Shown here: in pieces, positions 3,650-22,195 of the stretch
How positions within the stretch are numbered: the stretch's first letter is position 1
Layout of the letters: each line of letters starts with the position of its first letter
Assembly: GCA_964409875.1 (NCBI GenBank)
Contig: CAYPEN010000003.1
Span: forward strand, 64,557-128,556
Direction: 5' to 3'
DNA: 64,000 bases
Source of the DNA: an uncultured Gammaproteobacteria bacterium
Lineage (GTDB): Bacteria > Patescibacteriota > Microgenomatia > Levybacterales > GWA1-39-11
Made by a program: the position numbers and the translations under genes
Notes under the pieces: generated by a model
The model's database searches: none
Told to the model about the DNA's origin: nothing
The model's input: only the letters and a program-made list of their open reading frames with translations

Positions 3650-6600
3650 TTAATTGAGTATTCGGACTCCTTCAACAATTATAACCGGAATTTCTTCTTT
3701 GAAATCCAGCTTGCCTTCAACTACAACTATCGCGTCTTTGACAAGGTATTGCTTGGCTCGCTCATAGGTTTTCGGAAAAACGACACATTCAATACTAACC
3801 CCCACATGATCCTCAAGCGTCACGAATGCCATTTCTTCGTTGGAGCGCTTAGTGAAAATCTTTTTTACGGTTGAAACCAATCCGCCTATTTTTACTCTGG
3901 TTCCGTTTTTTCCTTCGGCAAGCTCGGATATTTTATGGGTCGCAAAGGTAAAGAGAGTATTGAGCTTTTGGTTAAGAGGGTGGTCTGAGAGAAAAAAACC
4001 GAGCAGCTCTCTTTCAAAGGCCAGCTTCTCGCTGTCAGTGAAGTCTTCAATATCTAGAATATCATTTTCCGAGAATGTCTTCGGGGCTACTTGCGGTATG
4101 TCACCAAAAAGGCTGATTTGATTTACTGGTTTTTTTGTAGGCTTTTTTGTAATAGATGAAACAATGTCTGATATGGAAGAAAGAAGTGCAGCCCTTTTCC
4201 CGAAATCATCGAAAGCTCCAGCTTTAATAAGGCTTTCCAACGTTTTTTTATTGACTTTTGCAAGGTCTACTCTCGAGCAAAAATCACCCATATTTTTAAA
4301 TTCTCCGCTACTTCTTGCTTCAAGAATGGTTGAAATGGCTGCGCTTCCTACATTCTTAACAGCTGAAAGACCGAAACGCACCTTGTTATCCTCAATTGAA
4401 AAATCTTGCTGTGAGCGATTAATATTCGGACCCAGAACATCTATCTTTAGCCTTCGACATTCTGCAACCGCTATCGATATCTTCTCGTTTTTCTGCGGAC
4501 CGGTCGTTCCTCTCGATTCGGCAGTAAGTAACGCTGTCATAAATTCAACCGGAAAGTGGGCTTTCAAATATGCGGTTCTGAAGGCAATTGTGGCATAACA
4601 GGATGCATGAGCCTTGTTGAATCCGTACCCGGCAAATGGTGCTATTAATTCAAAAATTTCTTCTGCCTTTTTTTGTGAGAGACCATTTTTGACAGCCCCT
4701 TGCAGAAAAATCTCTTTTTGTTTTTTCATCTCCGCAGGAATTTTCTTTCCCATCGCCTTCCGGAATTTGTCTGCATCAAGCCATGTGTATCCGGCAAGTG
4801 CTATTGTGGTGAGCAATACGTCGTCCTGGTAGGTCAGAATACCATATGAATTTGCAAGAATCTCTTTTAAGCGTGGGTCGGGAAAAGTTATTTTTGTTGG
4901 GTCATGTTTTCTGGCGATAAAGTCCGGTATATTTTGCATCGGACCCGGCCGGTATAAAGCAACCATCGCCATGACGTCAAATATTGTTGTAGGTTTTAAT
5001 TCCTTTATGTACCGTCTCATGCCCGCAGACTCAAGCTGAAATATGCCTGTTGTCTCTCCGCTGGCAAGAAGAGCATAGGTAGGAGGGTCATCATAAGAAA
5101 TTTTTTGAAAATCTATATCTTTGCCTTGATTTTCTTTAATAAATCGCAACGCTTCCTGGATAATCGTCAAATTCCGAAGTCCCAAAAAATCCATTTTTAA
5201 TAGTCCGACTCCGTCTTCGCCGACTGTATACATGTCGTATTGGGTTACGATTTTGTCTCCATTGGTCTCTTTCTGAAGGGGTACGTATTCTGTCAAATCC
5301 TTATCCGCAATAACTACTCCAGCTGCATGGACTGATGCGTGTCGTGCAACGCCATTCAATTTTTTTGCCAAATCCAAAAGTCTTTTTGTTTCCGGTTCGG
5401 TTGTGTATGCAGTTTTCAAATCGGGACTTTGGGTAAGGGCCAGGTCAATTGTCATGTGGTGTCCCTGCCAGCCGGGGGGTATCATTTTAGAAATCCTATC
5501 CGGTTGCGCGTAGGGCATTCCCAATGCCCGTCCAGCATCCCTTACGCTACCTCTAGCTTCCATAGTTCCAAATGTAATAATTTGTGCAACTTTATCTTTC
5601 CCGTATTTTTCAGTAACGTACTCGATAACTTCGTCGCGTCTGGTGTCCGCAAAATCCAAATCTATATCGGGAGCGGATGGACGCTCAGGATTCAAAAACC
5701 GTTCAAAAGGAAGATTAAAATAGAAAGGATCAACGTCGGTTATTCTTAATATATATGAAACAACAGAGCCCGCTGCGGAGCCTCTTCCTGGACCCACGCT
5801 TATGCCATGGTCCTTTGCCCAGTTCACAAAATCAGCAACTGTCAAAAAATAAGTCTCATATCCCTTTTTGAGAATGATATCTATCTCGTATTCAACCCGG
5901 TCATAAATTTTTTTGTCCGCATTAGGATATCGAAGCGGTAGTCTTTCTTTGATAAGTTTTTTGAAATATTCAGCAGGGGTAAGTCCCTCAGGTACTGCAT
6001 ATTGAGGCATTATCCATTTTCCAAGGGTTAATTCCAAGTTGCACATATCAGCAATTTTTACTGAATTGGAAATTGCTTCTGGGAGATCGGAAAAATTTTT
6101 TGCCATTTCATCAGCGGATTTTATGTAAAAATCAGGCGAATCAATCATTGAAAGTTTTCTATTTTCATCATTTATTGTTGTTTGCGTACCTATGCAAAGC
6201 AATATTTCTTGTGCTTCCGCATCGTCCTTTTCGATGTAGTGGTTGTCATTTGTAGCGACCAGTCCGACCTCGAATTCTTTTGAGAGGGTAATAAGTTTTT
6301 GGTTTAACTCTTCTTGTGGAGGGACTTTTATGTGCCGTTGGATTTCAAGAAATAAGTTATCTTTGCCATAAATATCGATAAGTTTTTCAAGTCGTTCTTT
6401 TGCAAGCTTTTCGTTTCCGTCAACTAAAGGTTCCCCGACAAAACCATTTACACATGCGGTTAAGCAAATGAGCCCTCCGCTGTATTTCTTTAAAAGGTTG
6501 ATGTCAGTTCTAGGTTTGTAATAGAACCCTTCTAAGTGCGAAATAGTTATTATTTTCATCAGATTTTTATAGCCGGTTAAGTCTTTTGCCAGCAATATGA

Positions 6601-6865
6601 GATGGTTATAGTCTTTATCTACCCCTGCTTCTTTGTCATGAAGGTTGCGTTTTGCAACATATATTTCGCATCCGATGATAGGTTTTACTCCCTCGCTCAA
6701 GCATTTTTTGTAAAACTTAATCGCACCGTATAAATTCCCGTGGTCTGTAATGGCAATTGAGTTCATGCCCAATTTTTTGGCATGCTCGATCATCGGGTCG
6801 ATACGGGAAAGACCGTCAAGCAACGAATATTCGGAATGGTTATGAAGGTGAACAAAATCTGCCAT
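3650..6865 (-). CDS. dnaE: DNA polymerase III alpha subunit
   Basis: 1071 aa. N-terminal PHP domain (HLHNHSEYSLLDG), Pol III alpha core and an OB-fold C-terminus. Confidence 0.95.
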   Translation of the reverse strand: MADFVHLHNHSEYSLLDGLSRIDPMIEHAKKLGMNSIAITDHGNLYGAIKFYKKCLSEGVKPIIGCEIYVAKRNLHDKEAGVDKDYNHLILLAKDLTGYKNLMKIITISHLEGFYYKPRTDINLLKKYSGGLICLTACVNGFVGEPLVDGNEKLAKERLEKLIDIYGKDNLFLEIQRHIKVPPQEELNQKLITLSKEFEVGLVATNDNHYIEKDDAEAQEILLCIGTQTTINDENRKLSMIDSPDFYIKSADEMAKNFSDLPEAISNSVKIADMCNLELTLGKWIMPQYAVPEGLTPAEYFKKLIKERLPLRYPNADKKIYDRVEYEIDIILKKGYETYFLTVADFVNWAKDHGISVGPGRGSAAGSVVSYILRITDVDPFYFNLPFERFLNPERPSAPDIDLDFADTRRDEVIEYVTEKYGKDKVAQIITFGTMEARGSVRDAGRALGMPYAQPDRISKMIPPGWQGHHMTIDLALTQSPDLKTAYTTEPETKRLLDLAKKLNGVARHASVHAAGVVIADKDLTEYVPLQKETNGDKIVTQYDMYTVGEDGVGLLKMDFLGLRNLTIIQEALRFIKENQGKDIDFQKISYDDPPTYALLASGETTGIFQLESAGMRRYIKELKPTTIFDVMAMVALYRPGPMQNIPDFIARKHDPTKITFPDPRLKEILANSYGILTYQDDVLLTTIALAGYTWLDADKFRKAMGKKIPAEMKKQKEIFLQGAVKNGLSQKKAEEIFELIAPFAGYGFNKAHASCYATIAFRTAYLKAHFPVEFMTALLTAESRGTTGPQKNEKISIAVAECRRLKIDVLGPNINRSQQDFSIEDNKVRFGLSAVKNVGSAAISTILEARSSGEFKNMGDFCSRVDLAKVNKKTLESLIKAGAFDDFGKRAALLSSISDIVSSITKKPTKKPVNQISLFGDIPQVAPKTFSENDILDIEDFTDSEKLAFERELLGFFLSDHPLNQKLNTLFTFATHKISELAEGKNGTRVKIGGLVSTVKKIFTKRSNEEMAFVTLEDHVGVSIECVVFPKTYERAKQYLVKDAIVVVEGKLDFKEEIPVIIVEGVRILN

Positions 6866-6870
6866 AAATT

Positions 6871-7401
6871 TTAAGCCACTTTTGAGTCTAAATTATTAAA
6901 TAATGTCACAAACGGTGGGTTTATCCGTGCACCGGTCTGGTGGCATAGTATCTCAATTGGTACCCCTCCATTTTTAGGAATTACTTTTACCATACCATCA
7001 TTGGCAGCCATCCATTCGTGTTCGGGGTCTGGGTGTGGTGGATCTGTCTCAACACCAAAACTCTCATCTTCGTTAATTGATCCAACTGCTTTACCAACTA
7101 CTTCTTGCCACCTCTGAAATTGCTTTTGATACCTTTCAAGCAAGGGAAGAGAGACTAAGTCGCTATTGTCTATATCAAATCCTACTCTTACGTCCACATC
7201 TTTTCTCTTGTCAGGCTGTTCTTTTACTACAGTTCCGCCTACTGCAAGCATAAATCCGCTTATTCCAAGCTTTTTTGTTGTTTGCATTAATGCATCGCGC
7301 AATGTGGAAACGTTTCTCTTGTTGTCTTCTCCTATGCTGGTGAGGTATGTTTCAGGGTCCCTTTCTTGGGAACTTACTACTATTTCTTGGCTTTCACTCA
7401 T
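6871..7401 (-). CDS. Hypothetical protein (possible minimal nucleotidyltransferase-like GS..DxD motif)
   Basis: 176 aa. GISGFMLAVGG...DVDVRV resembles a nucleotidyltransferase motif, but I recognise no clear family. Confidence 0.5.
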   Translation of the reverse strand: MSESQEIVVSSQERDPETYLTSIGEDNKRNVSTLRDALMQTTKKLGISGFMLAVGGTVVKEQPDKRKDVDVRVGFDIDNSDLVSLPLLERYQKQFQRWQEVVGKAVGSINEDESFGVETDPPHPDPEHEWMAANDGMVKVIPKNGGVPIEILCHQTGARINPPFVTLFNNLDSKVA

Positions 7402-19846: not shown

Positions 19847-19946
19847 GCCTTTCTCTCGCATTTTATGCGGATGTTTTGTTCCAAAAAATCCTAAATTAAG
19901 GACGAAAGTCTTGGCACCGTCCCCATTCGGTCCGTTACACTAAAAT

Positions 19947-21251
19947 CTACTCTTCAATATCATCTTCAGGGTCGTACGGTTCATCGTTCACTGGTTTTAT
20001 CAAGAAGTCCTTCATATCCCTATGTCCGATAATGACCGGGTATTTAAGGTTTGACCTGTCTACAATAGAGACAACCGTATTTATCTTCTTCCCACCCAGC
20101 GTAAATGTTGTTTTGGCAGTTGGCCGGAAGCTTTCACCGCTGGCAGATTTCACAAAAACCTTCTCGGAAAGCACCTGCATCCCGAGAAGTTCGGCGAATT
20201 TTCTGTCAACCGATGTCCTGTATGCACCTGTATCAAGCTTTGCCTTGACGGTTATCGGTTCACCGTTCCGGTAAAATGTAACCTCCTGGATGATGGTAAG
20301 TATCTTGGGGGATATAGACACTTTCTCGGAAAAGCTTTCGGTAAAAAGGTTTTTGGCAATTTCTACACCTCTTTCAGGGGTGGGAGTAATAATGTTTTCA
20401 ACGCGCTCTAAGCGAGAGCGAAGAGATGAACGGTTGGCATTTTGAATAGAAAGTCCAGGACGTGCATTAACCTCTAAAACCATTGGCCCCTCTTTGCCAT
20501 CGAAAACAATGTCAATACCGGCGTAGCCAAGCCCTGTTATTTCTTGTGCACGGGAGGCAAGAAGCAGTACCTGTTCCCAGTCGGGAATTTTAATCCCACG
20601 GGTTTTTATTTTTGTAGTGGGGATATGCGAAATTGGCTGGTCATAGAGAATCGCATTGGTCGTAATGCCCGTTCTTATATCGATTCCAAATCCTATTGCG
20701 CCCTGGTGAAGATTTGCTTTTCCGTGAGATTCTTCGGTTGAGAGCCTCATCATAGCCATAACGGGAATTTTGTTGAATGTTATGACTCTAATGTCGGGAA
20801 TGCCTACTCCCGTTAATTTCTTGAAAAATGGATGCGGATGAAGACGCTCCTCAATAAAAGCGTTATCGGGCAAAAATTTAAGTGAATAAGCTCCTTCAAG
20901 GATATCAAGAATATGGGATTCAAGTTGTTTGACAGTGTACGTTTGACCACTTGCTGTTGTTGCTACATTGTTCTCCCATTTTCTGATGGGAAGAATTCCG
21001 GATCCTGCATATCCTCTGGCTGGTTTTATGACAAAACCCCTTGTTGGAAGGTCACGCCATTCATAGTTTTTGATGGAATCTCTATCATAGAAAATTGAAA
21101 ACAAATTGGGCGTTTTTATCCCATTTTGTATCAAGACACTTTTCATCAATAATTTATCGTCAGCTATTTTTTTTGCTGCCGGTGGATTGTATCGTCTGAT
21201 GTATAAAAAATTCCGGGCGTTCATTCCCAGAATGTTTCTACTTACTGGCAT
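19947..21251 (-). CDS. ATP-grasp (RimK/alpha-L-glutamate ligase-like) protein fused to a C-terminal retropepsin-like aspartic protease domain (DUF785-like)
   Basis: N-terminal ~300-aa ATP-grasp (RimK-related). C-terminal KAKLDTGAYRTSVD carries the DTGA retropepsin signature, normally found in a separate partner protein. Confidence 0.7.
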   Translation of the reverse strand: MPVSRNILGMNARNFLYIRRYNPPAAKKIADDKLLMKSVLIQNGIKTPNLFSIFYDRDSIKNYEWRDLPTRGFVIKPARGYAGSGILPIRKWENNVATTASGQTYTVKQLESHILDILEGAYSLKFLPDNAFIEERLHPHPFFKKLTGVGIPDIRVITFNKIPVMAMMRLSTEESHGKANLHQGAIGFGIDIRTGITTNAILYDQPISHIPTTKIKTRGIKIPDWEQVLLLASRAQEITGLGYAGIDIVFDGKEGPMVLEVNARPGLSIQNANRSSLRSRLERVENIITPTPERGVEIAKNLFTESFSEKVSISPKILTIIQEVTFYRNGEPITVKAKLDTGAYRTSVDRKFAELLGMQVLSEKVFVKSASGESFRPTAKTTFTLGGKKINTVVSIVDRSNLKYPVIIGHRDMKDFLIKPVNDEPYDPEDDIEE

Positions 21252-22158
21252 GGCGGATTATAGAGGAAAACCTGAAATATTCCATAAGTCGTAATCCAAA
21301 GTAGCGGCCAACAATAATATTAAGAGGAATAAGTACCAGAATGAATTCAGGATAAAGAAGAATGGTGTTTCTTAGGTGGGTCGAGGAGAGAAGTAAAAAT
21401 CCCAGGATTCCAATAGCAAAAGTTACCATTGAAATTATTATCATTTCCTGTGCACTTCTTTCTTGCTGAACTGATATTATTTGTTCTGACAAAAGAATCA
21501 GAAGTAGCACCGGGAAAATGGAAAGCTGCTTTACGACGAGAATGCCTGCCATTGCGCTGACAGTCAGCGTTAAGAAAAGAAAGATGGAAACTATGAACAT
21601 TGAAAACGCCATTTTAGGCAACTGCATAATGCGGACTTTTTTGAGGAGTATGCGTGCGATAGTTGATGAGAAAATAATTGTTGCCAATAGGATAAGCCCT
21701 GCTGTTATTCCGGTTGAAAGCAGTGTGATGGAGAGTGCAACAGGTACGAGCATGCCGATGCTGGGAAGACCGATGACATGCCGTATAAAAGCAATAATTG
21801 TTGCAAGCATCGGGAGAAGCAGGATAAGGATTACTGTTCTTGATGGAACACCTGCCTTGACCGAGGCTTGGACAAGGAACGCCAAAATATTCCATCCATT
21901 GAGCTTGTCTGCAGGGCGCTGCTTGAAGAGAGCAAGCGCCTGCTCATCTTCCGGTCCTTCTGGCCGCGTGACATCCTGCTGTTGAATTTTTGCAATTTCT
22001 GCTGCTTCTTTTGCGGAGGCTGAAGCATTTGCTGAATCTGTCGCTGTTGCGACCGAAGGTGGATTTGGGAGCACATTGAATATATCTTGCGCCTGAACAT
22101 TTTTGACGAAGAAAGCAAAAAGAATAATAAAAAAGAGGCTTAAGAGAGTAAATTTCAT
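21238..22158 (-). CDS. Signal-peptide plus multi-TM (about 7 TM) membrane protein, partner of the ATP-grasp/protease gene
   Basis: Signal peptide MKFTLLSLFFIILFAFFVKNVQA, then a low-complexity extracellular segment and multiple TM helices. Overlaps the downstream ATP-grasp gene by 14 nt. Confidence 0.6.
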   Translation of the reverse strand: MKFTLLSLFFIILFAFFVKNVQAQDIFNVLPNPPSVATATDSANASASAKEAAEIAKIQQQDVTRPEGPEDEQALALFKQRPADKLNGWNILAFLVQASVKAGVPSRTVILILLLPMLATIIAFIRHVIGLPSIGMLVPVALSITLLSTGITAGLILLATIIFSSTIARILLKKVRIMQLPKMAFSMFIVSIFLFLTLTVSAMAGILVVKQLSIFPVLLLILLSEQIISVQQERSAQEMIIISMVTFAIGILGFLLLSSTHLRNTILLYPEFILVLIPLNIIVGRYFGLRLMEYFRFSSIIRHASK

Positions 22159-22195
22159 ACGTTTTATAGTATCAAATAAGCAAGTTGAGTTCAAC

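What the first reader, a model, noticed from the sequence alone, without database searches (positions are those of the whole stretch)
19947..22158. 7TM protein plus ATP-grasp::retropepsin fusion, a compact version of a poorly understood three-component system
A RimK-like ATP-grasp ligase, a retropepsin-like protease (DUF785) and a 7TM protein are known to co-occur as separate genes of unknown function. Here the ligase and protease are fused in one polypeptide and are translationally coupled (14-nt overlap) to a signal-peptide/multi-TM partner. That partner lacks the usual large transglutaminase-like ectodomain. This suggests a membrane-associated peptide ligation and processing machine; the substrate is unknown.
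Basis: partly seen in the sequence, partly recalled or inferred. Interest (0 to 1): 0.7.

Follow-up and report, generated by a model that had tools for sequence, protein, structure and literature searches.

The report
Compact Rlo-like ligase–protease membrane system
Two overlapping genes encode a seven-helix membrane protein and a cytoplasmic enzyme that joins an amino-acid ligase to a retrovirus-type protease; this two-gene form of the recently named Pseudomonas Rlo system is standard across ultra-small (CPR) bacteria and puts the protease on the opposite side of the membrane from Pseudomonas.

Summary
ORF 19947-21251(-) encodes 434 aa: an RloC-type ATP-grasp ligase (PF14397, E 4e-72; TIGR02291, E 1e-88) fused to a short retropepsin with an intact DTGA site. 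It overlaps by 14 nt ORF 21238-22158(-), 306 aa: signal peptide, short acidic outer segment and the 7TM module of RloB, with no transglutaminase-like ectodomain.

It is not a one-off. All 80 genome loci retrieved carry the fusion; named records are Levy-, Roizman-, Davies-, Curtiss-, Nomura-, Kaiserbacteria, Parcubacteria and WWE3. In 79 the short 7TM gene lies directly upstream, usually with the same overlap. No third gene or small ORF is conserved. Both catalytic centres are conserved in at least 78 of 81 sequences, including the basic residues that bind poly-glutamate in RloA.

The parent system was named RloABC in 2025, and its biochemistry is still open.

A sister arrangement puts the same retropepsin (41% identity) behind a signal peptide on the outer end of the 7TM protein, with an unfused ligase. 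The protease therefore sits inside here and outside there.

Best reading: a membrane-docked ligase builds acidic (Glu-rich) peptides, the fused protease trims them, and the 7TM partner probably passes them outward. This is a new variant of a known kind, of moderate interest.

The parts
21238..22158 (-). Gene for the 306-aa 7TM membrane protein, the RloB 7TM module without the inactive-transglutaminase ectodomain
   Evidence: ORF. PF14402 E 1.7e-22. RloB model matched only at positions 313-507 of 508. Public gene call is identical. 120 of 120 listed homologue clusters carry PF14402 only, nearly all 275-330 aa.
22090..22158 (-). Predicted signal peptide, aa 1-23 (MKFTLLSLFFIILFAFFVKNVQA), followed by an invariant Gln
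   Evidence: Hydrophobic segment 1-23. A23 and Q24 are conserved in alignment A3. Cleavage is inferred, not shown.
21856..22089 (-). Short acidic extracytoplasmic segment, aa 24-101, with conserved motifs ATDSA, EDVTRPE and LFxxRP. It takes the place of the roughly 300-aa transglutaminase-like ectodomain of RloB.
   Evidence: Alignment A3. Low AF2 confidence for residues 23-65. 10 acidic against 7 basic residues.
21310..21855 (-). Seven-helix membrane core, aa 102-283, predicted N-out/C-in
21241..21309 (-). Cytoplasmic C-terminal tail, aa 284-306, with the near-invariant motif GRYFGLRxxExxRF; inferred docking site for the ligase
   Evidence: G284 to R290, E293 and F297 are conserved in at least 95% of 73 sequences. 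The same motif is present in retropepsin::7TM proteins. The docking role is inference.
21238..21251 (-). 14-nt overlap (ATGCCAGTAAGTAG) between the end of the 7TM gene and the start of the fusion gene, implying translational coupling
   Evidence: Sequence read. The same 14-nt (or 11- or 17-nt) overlap is seen in most of the 79 loci.
19947..21251 (-). Gene for the 434-aa cytoplasmic bifunctional protein, ATP-grasp ligase::retropepsin
   Evidence: No hydrophobic segment (maximum 19-residue hydropathy 1.0). AF2 mean pLDDT 86.9.
20370..21239 (-). RloC-type ATP-grasp domain, aa 5-294, with ATP/Mg residues K76, D247, E260 and N262
   Evidence: TIGR02291 E 1.3e-88, 297 bits. PF14397 243 bits. Foldseek best matches are ArgX/LysX and RimK, E about 3e-10. 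K76, D247, E260 and N262 are present in 81 of 81 sequences.
19992..20294 (-). Short retropepsin-like aspartic protease domain, aa 320-420, net charge +8
   Evidence: PF05618, PF13650 and PF13975. RloA3 model E 9e-9. Profile against PDB: RloA structures 9g59 E 4.8e-9, 9g58 E 5.4e-8, DUF785 2pma E 1e-7, then Ddi1 and a protease/reverse-transcriptase entry (2jys). Foldseek 2pma E 7.7e-8.
20223..20234 (-). Catalytic DTGA motif, aa 340-343, preceded by K338. R376 and R399 lie downstream, with the same 23-residue spacing as R114 and R137 of RloA.
   Evidence: D340 in 80 of 81, K338 in 79, R376 in 78, R399 in 79. Alignments to 9g59 and 9g58. Residue roles come from PMC12239564.
19950..19991 (-). Disordered acidic C-terminal tail, aa 421-434 (VNDEPYDPEDDIEE), 8 of 14 residues acidic, ending in EE
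   Evidence: pLDDT 41-59. Charge count. The EE ending is conserved only in the Levybacteria-proximal clade, 20 of 81.

Best explanation
This is the CPR (Patescibacteria) form of the Rlo system, a self-contained two-gene operon.

Gene 1 encodes an N-out/C-in seven-helix membrane protein equal to the 7TM module of RloB. A short acidic stalk replaces the inactive-transglutaminase ectodomain. Gene 2 is translationally coupled to it. It encodes a soluble cytoplasmic enzyme in which an RloC-type, RimK-related ATP-grasp ligase is covalently joined to an RloA/RimB-type retropepsin.

Proposed mechanism:
1. The ligase docks on the conserved cytoplasmic tail of the 7TM protein.
2. It uses ATP to add amino acids, most likely L-glutamate in alpha linkage, to a peptide carboxylate, building an acidic chain.
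3. Two fusion proteins pair so that their single-DTG retropepsin domains form one active site. That site has a basic channel and cuts the acidic chain, setting its length, releasing it or recycling it. This is the covalent equivalent of RimB docking on RimK.
4. The 7TM partner tethers the enzyme to the membrane and probably hands the product to the outside.

Shown here: domain identities, conservation of both catalytic centres, gene coupling, conservation of the pair across CPR phyla, predicted topology, and the existence of sister systems with the protease outside.

Inferred: glutamate as the building block, the ligase-7TM complex, protease dimerisation, and export.
For: Domains.

Conservation of the pair: the fusion is present in 80 of 80 genome loci and in all full-length clusters among the 120 listed (one hit is a 305-aa partial record). 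The short 7TM gene lies directly upstream on the same strand in 79 of 80 loci. No other gene or small ORF is conserved.

Catalysis: K76, D247, E260 and N262 are present in 81 of 81 sequences. D340, K338, R376 and R399 are present in at least 78 of 81. These positions line up with K46, D48, R114 and R137 of RloA, which coordinate poly-Glu and are needed for activity in vitro and in vivo.

Chemistry: the nearest structures are RimK, a poly-alpha-Glu synthetase, and LysX/ArgX. All of them ligate amino acids to a peptide carboxylate. RimB binds RimK, stimulates its ATPase activity and poly-alpha-Glu synthesis, and cleaves poly-Glu.

Genetics elsewhere: rloB or rloC deletion suppresses the triple-protease mutant in P. 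aeruginosa. So RloB and RloC act upstream of a product that the protease removes.

Export: sister systems carry the same short retropepsin (41% identity, E 4e-22) behind a signal peptide on the outer N-terminus of the 7TM protein. Their unfused ligase is 38% identical, E 2e-64. Pseudomonas RloA is also secreted. The protease substrate must therefore exist on both faces of the membrane.

Trimming of acidic tails: there are triple fusions ATP-grasp::retropepsin::MATCAP-type carboxypeptidase.
Against: No biochemical activity has been shown for RloC or for any member of this ligase clade; glutamate is inferred from the protease side and from the RimK relationship. TIGR02291 scores 297 bits, just below its curated cut-off of 314.

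The 7TM model resembles no known transporter or channel. Its variable ectodomains elsewhere (transglutaminase-like, PKD, none) would also suit a sensor.

A cytoplasmic protease fused to the ligase could simply undo the ligase's work, a futile cycle, unless it is regulated.

The retropepsin here lacks roughly 30 residues that lie between the DTGA block and the R-P block in RloA, so its specificity may differ. Two or three of the 81 lineages have lost the DTG site, so protease activity is dispensable in some.
Confidence: 0.5

Rival explanations
1. The 7TM protein is a receptor or regulator, not a conduit. It senses an envelope or external cue and switches the cytoplasmic ligase-protease on or off. 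The product, a poly-Glu pool or a glutamylated cytoplasmic target, stays inside the cell.
For: Ectodomains on this 7TM module vary between lineages: transglutaminase-like in RloB, PKD in L085, a short stalk here. That is typical of sensors. The 7TM model has no structural similarity to transporters. In this window both enzymatic domains are cytoplasmic.
Against: In sister systems and in Pseudomonas the homologous protease is outside the membrane. There, loss of RloB or RloC relieves the need for it. That requires an RloB/RloC-dependent substrate outside the cell.
Confidence: 0.2
2. The system modifies a cell-wall or lipid-linked precursor. The ligase would add acidic residues to a peptidoglycan stem peptide or another envelope-polymer carboxylate, the protease would edit the modification, and the 7TM protein would flip or present the precursor.
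For: Pseudomonas rlo mutants show cell-shape, beta-lactam and hypo-osmotic phenotypes, and the authors suggest a peptidoglycan link. The Pfam family name is 'sugar-transfer associated ATP-grasp'. D-Ala-D-Ala ligases are among the structural matches.
Against: No cell-wall gene is conserved next to the pair in 80 loci. The protease keeps the residues that bind poly-Glu. RimK and LysX/ArgX rank above Ddl.
Confidence: 0.15
3. It is a RimK/RimB-type ribosomal protein S6 glutamylation system that merely happens to be fused, working on the ribosome in the cytoplasm.
For: The protease is cytoplasmic like RimB, and RimB docks on RimK. The neighbours in this window are translation genes, rplS and typA. 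Retropepsin::RimK fusions exist (P0375).
Against: RimK models fail badly: TIGR00768 scores 59 bits against 143, and PRK10446 scores 19 against 331. The best family is the RloC-type TIGR02291. A 7TM partner is obligatory in 79 of 80 loci. Synteny with rplS (17 loci) and typA (12 loci) is only local.
Confidence: 0.08
4. Self-priming: the ligase extends the acidic C-terminal tail of its own polypeptide (...DDIEE), as RimK extends the ...EE end of S6. The neighbouring retropepsin then clips the tail off, releasing poly-Glu oligomers.
For: The tail is disordered, 8 of 14 residues are acidic, and it ends in EE. The EE ending is kept in the Levybacteria-proximal clade, in 16 of the 20 sequences of alignment A1 down to about 60% identity.
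Against: Only 20 of 81 family members end in EE. Parcubacteria-type members end in ...IPEGVLVK. So this cannot be the general mechanism.
Confidence: 0.07

Closest known systems
RloABC operon of Pseudomonas aeruginosa (Lormand et al., mBio 2025, PMC12239564)
   Same: The same three modules are present: an RloC-type ATP-grasp (TIGR02291, E 1e-88), the RloB 7TM module (PF14402), and an RloA-type retropepsin with DTG and the conserved K/R residues that bind poly-Glu. The genes are adjacent in one operon.
   Different: There are two genes rather than three. The protease has no signal peptide and is fused to the C-terminus of the cytoplasmic ligase, whereas RloA is secreted. The 7TM protein lacks the inactive-transglutaminase ectodomain. 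The retropepsin is about 30 residues shorter. The host is a CPR bacterium, while the paper reports RloB as 96% proteobacterial.
RimK-RimB(-RimA) ribosomal protein S6 glutamylation system (PMC7343187, PMC11957791)
   Same: An ATP-grasp alpha-L-glutamate ligase works with a cytoplasmic retropepsin-like protease that cuts poly-Glu. RimB physically docks on RimK, which the fusion here makes permanent.
   Different: The ligase fails the RimK family models. It has an obligatory membrane partner. No link to S6 was found.
Retropepsin::7TM plus unfused ATP-grasp systems (P0296 in loci L082-L084; found here, unnamed)
   Same: All three modules are homologous: ligase 38%, protease 41%, 7TM 21% identity. 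The two genes also overlap, and the 7TM C-terminal motif GRYxGLRxxExxRF is shared.
   Different: The protease is fused to the outer N-terminus of the 7TM protein behind a signal peptide, so it lies on the opposite side of the membrane.
LysX/ArgX-LysW amino-group carrier ligases
   Same: They are the best structural matches of the ligase domain (3vpb, E 2.5e-10). Like RimK, they ligate an amino acid to a carboxylate of a protein tail.
   Different: No LysW-like carrier gene is present, sequence identity is 17%, and they belong to a different pathway.
Tubulin tyrosine ligase (TTL/TTLL) and MATCAP tail-editing cycle of eukaryotes
   Same: This is a functional analogy: an ATP-grasp ligase adds residues to an acidic C-terminal tail and a peptidase removes them. 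Some relatives of this fusion carry a MATCAP-family domain in the same polypeptide (P0271, P0276).
   Different: The window's protein has no MATCAP domain. The TTL family match is weak (E 0.065).
PgsBCA/CapBCA poly-gamma-glutamate synthetase
   Same: If the export reading is right, this is a functional analogue: a membrane-bound ATP-dependent machine that makes and externalises a glutamate polymer.
   Different: By general knowledge, not tested here, its ligase is not an ATP-grasp enzyme, it makes a gamma linkage, and its membrane subunits are unrelated.

Membership tests
RloABC system | RloC-type ATP-grasp protein (NCBIfam TIGR02291, alpha-L-glutamate ligase-like) | tested here: inconclusive
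   Best NCBIfam hit by far: E 1.3e-88, 297.1 bits over profile positions 10-299 of 317. It is still below the curated cut-off of 314.2. PF14397 scores 243 bits against a cut-off of 31.4.
RloABC system | Retropepsin-like peptidase with a DTG site and the basic residues that coordinate poly-Glu (K46, R114, R137 of RloA) | tested here: met
   DTGA at residues 340-343. K338, R376 and R399 align with these positions in 9g59 and 9g58 and are conserved in at least 78 of 81 sequences. The RloA3 model gives E 9e-9 but is far below its equivalog cut-off.
RloABC system | The peptidase is secreted (has an N-terminal signal peptide) | tested here: not met
   The protease domain is internal (aa 320-420) in a polypeptide with no hydrophobic segment, C-terminal to an ATP-dependent domain.
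RloABC system | RloB 7TM module | tested here: met
   PF14402 scores 80.6 bits against a cut-off of 25. RloB model positions 313-507 are matched.
RloABC system | RloB inactive-transglutaminase ectodomain | tested here: not met
   Nothing matches RloB profile positions 1-312. The whole-protein score is 47.8 bits against a cut-off of 900. No transglutaminase family appears in Pfam at E up to 1. Only 78 residues lie between the signal peptide and TM1.
RloABC system | Genes adjacent and co-oriented in one operon | tested here: met
   14-nt overlap, conserved in 79 of 80 loci.
RloABC system | Role in hypo-osmotic stress tolerance, with rloB or rloC epistatic to the proteases | not testable with these tools
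   Genetic phenotype from PMC12239564. The CPR host is uncultured.
RimK/RimB S6-glutamylation system | Ligase belongs to the RimK family (TIGR00768, or the PRK10446 equivalog) | tested here: not met
   TIGR00768 scores 59.3 bits against 143.4. PRK10446 scores 18.8 against 331.
RimK/RimB S6-glutamylation system | Acts on ribosomal protein S6 ending in Glu-Glu | not tested
   rpsF was not looked for in the window. No S6 gene lies next to the pair.
Clan AA retropepsin-like peptidases (PF05618/DUF785 branch) | D-T/S-G-A catalytic motif and family HMM | tested here: met
   DTGA is present. PF05618 scores 28.5 bits against a cut-off of 27, a marginal pass; PF13650 scores 26.2 against 24.3. The profile hits RloA structures at E 4.8e-9, then Ddi1 and a protease/reverse-transcriptase entry (2jys).
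Clan AA retropepsin-like peptidases (PF05618/DUF785 branch) | Retropepsin beta-barrel fold | tested here: met
   The AF2 model has pLDDT 85-91 over residues 320-420 and is all-beta. Foldseek match to DUF785 structure 2pma, E 7.7e-8.
Clan AA retropepsin-like peptidases (PF05618/DUF785 branch) | Homodimer forming one active site from two DTG loops | not testable with these tools
   There is only one DTG per chain. Indirect support comes from a relative with two tandem retropepsin domains (P0273). No multimer prediction was available.
ATP-grasp superfamily | ATP-binding lysine and the Mg-binding D / E-x-N residues | tested here: met
   K76, D247, E260 and N262 are invariant in 81 of 81 sequences. 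D247, E260 and N262 fall in the conserved AG(I/V)DI ... (L/M)EVN block that aligns with Pseudomonas RimK (7qys).

The most novel reading that the evidence does not exclude
The same retropepsin domain has moved between the cytoplasmic ligase (this window and CPR generally) and the extracytoplasmic end of the 7TM protein (sister systems and secreted RloA). Its substrate must therefore be present on both faces of the membrane. The simplest reading is that the ATP-grasp product is a polymer threaded through the 7TM protein. The CPR pair would then be a minimal two-protein synthase, exporter and trimmer for an acidic alpha-linked peptide such as poly-alpha-glutamate. That would be a new kind of peptide-polymer secretion machine, unrelated to PgsBCA. 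It would also explain why Pseudomonas cells without RloA proteases die in low-osmolarity medium: a trapped periplasmic polyanion.
Probability: 0.3. Interest if true: 0.75.

Novelty: new variant of a known kind. Interest (0 to 1): 0.5.

Why it matters
The Rlo system affects osmotic survival, biofilm formation, cell shape and beta-lactam tolerance in P. aeruginosa. Its chemistry is unknown: nobody has shown what RloC makes or what RloB does.

The CPR form reduces the system to two proteins with no ectodomain and no third gene. That makes it the simplest version to reconstitute.

Comparing it with the sister arrangement gives a concrete, testable constraint. The protease substrate must be reachable from both sides of the membrane, which argues that the 7TM protein passes the ligase product across it.

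The module is kept across many CPR phyla despite their very small genomes, which suggests it matters for the envelope or surface of these host-dependent bacteria.

Tried and rejected
1. A nearby substrate gene. ORFs of at least 70 aa in 6-kb flanks of 80 loci were clustered, and ORFs of 15-69 aa within 600 nt. Only the pair itself and antisense shadows are conserved. CTP synthase, L19 and TypA are local synteny in 25, 17 and 12 loci. In this window there is no room for one: 37 nt upstream, about 100 nt downstream.
2. A functional link to typA or rplS. Rejected because the synteny is limited.
3. The EE C-terminus as a universal self-substrate. Rejected as a general feature: only 20 of 81 sequences end in EE.
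5. AFDB search of the fusion model. The library was not available.
6. Anti-phage defence. No PADLOC hits.
7. Canonical RimK. Rejected on model scores.
8. The 2009 comparative-genomics paper on amidoligases (Iyer et al., Mol Biosyst). It may already mention such fusions, but it is not held in the library, so prior description of the fusion could not be checked.
9. Promoter and terminator scans were at background level.
Full report
**1. The observation**

The region holds two ORFs on the minus strand.

- ORF 19947-21251 encodes 434 aa.
- ORF 21238-22158 encodes 306 aa counted from the ATG. A longer reading from a TTG at 22194 is not used in the public gene call for the identical contig.
- The two genes overlap by 14 nt, ATGCCAGTAAGTAG.
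- Upstream on the same strand lies typA/bipA, whose stop is 37 nt before the ATG.
- Downstream lies a convergent rplS gene.

**2. The 434-aa fusion protein**

- PF14397 ATPgrasp_ST matches residues 13-286, E 4e-72.
- NCBIfam TIGR02291 (alpha-L-glutamate ligase-like, the RloC type) gives E 1.3e-88 and 297 bits, just under its curated cut-off of 314.
- RimK models fail: TIGR00768 scores 59 bits against 143, and PRK10446 scores 19 against 331.
- Residues 329-417 match PF05618 (28.5 bits against 27), PF13650 and PF13975. They also match the RloA3, RloA2 and RloA models.
- The DTGA motif is at residues 340-343.
- The AF2 model is confident, with mean pLDDT 86.9.
- For the ligase part, the best solved matches are ArgX/LysX and RimK, E about 3e-10. 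For the C-terminal domain the match is DUF785 structure 2pma, E 7.7e-8.
- A profile of the C-terminal domain alone finds the RloA crystal structures 9g59 (E 4.8e-9) and 9g58 (E 5.4e-8), then 2pma, then Ddi1 and a protease/reverse-transcriptase entry, 2jys.
- The match to RloA comes in two blocks around a deletion of roughly 30 residues, so this is a short form of the retropepsin.
- The protein has no hydrophobic segment. The protease domain carries net charge +8, and the last 14 residues carry net charge -8.

**3. The 306-aa membrane protein**

- PF14402 7TM_transglut matches residues 111-300, E 1.7e-22.
- Only positions 313-507 of the 508-position RloB model are matched, and no transglutaminase family hit appears.
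- The protein has a signal peptide (aa 1-23), a 78-residue acidic segment with conserved motifs, seven helices and a basic C-terminal tail.
- The positive-inside pattern gives an N-out/C-in topology.

**4. Distribution**

The fusion is not a singleton.

- All full-length clusters among the 120 best 90%-identity clusters are 425-466 aa with both parts. The one short hit is a 305-aa partial record.
- All 80 genome loci retrieved match residues 1 to 420 or beyond. The named records are Levy-, Roizman-, Davies-, Curtiss-, Nomura- and Kaiserbacteria, Parcubacteria/Paceibacterota and WWE3. Some records are labelled Saccharimonadales.
- The closest named relative, at 95% identity, is a Levyibacteriota MAG.
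- In 79 of 80 loci a short 7TM gene of roughly 290-335 aa lies directly upstream on the same strand, mostly with the same 14-nt overlap. The one exception is a 1.5-kb contig.
- Nothing else is conserved next to the pair, neither ORFs of at least 70 aa nor small ORFs.
- Across 81 fusion proteins at 45-95% identity, the ATP-grasp residues K76, D247, E260 and N262 are invariant.
- The protease residues D340, K338, R376 and R399 are kept in at least 78 of 81.
- Two or three lineages have lost the DTG site.

**5. What is known about the parent system**

- RloA proteases are secreted retropepsins with a basic channel. They cleave stretches of at least 8 Glu.
- K46, R114 and R137 coordinate the substrate, and R114 and R137 are essential in vivo.
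- Deleting rloB (inactive transglutaminase plus 7TM) or rloC (ATP-grasp) suppresses the defects of the triple-protease mutant.
- The product of RloC and the role of RloB are unknown.
- The authors report RloB as 96% proteobacterial.
- The related cytoplasmic pair RimK-RimB glutamylates and trims ribosomal protein S6. RimB docks on RimK and stimulates it (PMC7343187, PMC11957791).
- In the window's protein, K338, D340, R376 and R399 align with K46, D48, R114 and R137. The 23-residue spacing between the two arginines is identical.

**6. Related architectures**

A search with the protease domain alone, followed by Pfam scans of 20 hits, showed that this short retropepsin moves between partners.

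- Type A: C-terminal to the ATPgrasp_ST ligase, as in this window.
- Type B: behind a signal peptide at the N-terminus of a 7TM_transglut protein. 12 of 13 such candidates tested carried the 7TM domain, and one has two tandem retropepsins.
- Type C: a triple fusion, ATP-grasp::retropepsin::MATCAP-type carboxypeptidase.
- Type D: retropepsin::RimK.

Type B loci (L082-L084) pair the retropepsin::7TM gene with an overlapping, unfused 304-aa ATPgrasp_ST gene. All three modules are homologous to those of the window:

| Module | Identity | E-value |
|---|---|---|
| Ligase | 38% | 2e-64 |
| Protease | 41% | 4e-22 |
| 7TM | 21% | 1e-13 |

The 7TM proteins also share the C-terminal motif GRYxGLRxxExxRF. 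So the same protease sits in the cytoplasm in one arrangement and outside in the other, and RloA is also outside.

**7. Mechanism**

Shown: a conserved, translationally coupled pair; an intact ATP-grasp centre; an intact retropepsin centre with the poly-Glu-binding residues; a cytoplasmic location for both enzymatic domains; and an N-out/C-in 7TM partner.

Inferred:

1. The ligase builds an acidic, probably alpha-linked Glu chain. This rests on the relationship to RimK and on the specificity of the protease.
2. Two fusion chains pair so that the protease is active, because there is one DTG per chain.
3. The ligase docks on the conserved 7TM tail.
4. The 7TM protein passes the product outward.

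The last point is the best way to reconcile proteases on both sides of the membrane with the Pseudomonas epistasis data, but it has no structural support.

I put about 0.9 on 'CPR variant of the Rlo system' and about 0.5 on the mechanism as stated.

Rivals are listed separately: the 7TM protein as a sensor, cell-wall precursor modification, a RimK-like S6 system, and self-priming on the EE tail.

**8. Novelty and interest**

The proteins are in public databases, annotated only as 'alpha-L-glutamate ligase-like' or 'hypothetical'.

I found no paper describing the CPR two-gene form or the move of the protease across the membrane. One relevant 2009 survey could not be read.

It is a new variant of a known kind. 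Interest is moderate. The fusion itself is ordinary for CPR, but it offers the simplest version of an unsolved system and a testable constraint on how that system works.

Noticed in passing
window 19950-19991 (-), aa 421-434 of the fusion: The disordered C-terminal tail VNDEPYDPEDDIEE ends in Glu-Glu, like the S6 C-terminus that RimK extends. The EE ending is kept in the Levybacteria-proximal clade (16 of 20 sequences in alignment A1) but in only 20 of 81 across the family. Parcubacteria-type members end in ...IPEGVLVK.
   Followed up: partly
L082:2275-4370 (also L083, L084): A sister arrangement: a 394-aa protein with a signal peptide, retropepsin domain and 7TM module overlaps an unfused 304-aa ATPgrasp_ST gene. 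The protease is predicted to be outside the membrane, the opposite side from the window's system.
   Followed up: yes
L085:1870-9876: A larger cluster in a CPR-like context. It holds a PKD::7TM protein (516 aa), an 800-aa ATP-grasp::retropepsin::MATCAP triple fusion, two more ATP-grasp genes, a second MATCAP-family gene and a further ATP-grasp. This looks like a multi-ligase, multi-peptidase version of the same system.
   Followed up: partly
P0273 (487 aa): Two tandem retropepsin domains precede the 7TM module, a pepsin-like pseudo-dimer within one chain. This supports the view that the domain works as a dimer.
   Followed up: partly
L075 and L078 (fusion genes at 6001-7275 and 6001-7278); also L039: A few lineages have a degenerate protease site (LADINTSMD, LADIDIQSE, or DTAN instead of DTGA) while keeping the ligase and the 7TM partner. 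The protease activity is therefore dispensable in some lineages.
   Followed up: partly
window 22087-22092 (-), aa 23-24 of the 7TM protein: An Ala-Gln pair at the predicted signal-peptidase site is almost invariant (A23, Q24 in alignment A3). The mature protein would then start with Gln, which could cyclise to pyroglutamate. The outer segment that follows has conserved motifs (ATDSA, EDVTRPE, LFxxRP) despite low predicted structure.
   Followed up: no
loci L002-L014 and others: Many third-party-annotated MAG records that carry this CPR-type gene pair, at 77-95% identity to a Levyibacteriota record, are titled 'uncultured Gammaproteobacteria bacterium'. The labels look like placeholders or misassignments.
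   Followed up: no
window 19856-19870 (+): A short terminator-like hairpin (TCGCATTTTATGCGG followed by a T-rich run) lies in the roughly 100-nt gap between the convergent rplS and fusion genes. The number of such sites in the region is near background.
   Followed up: no
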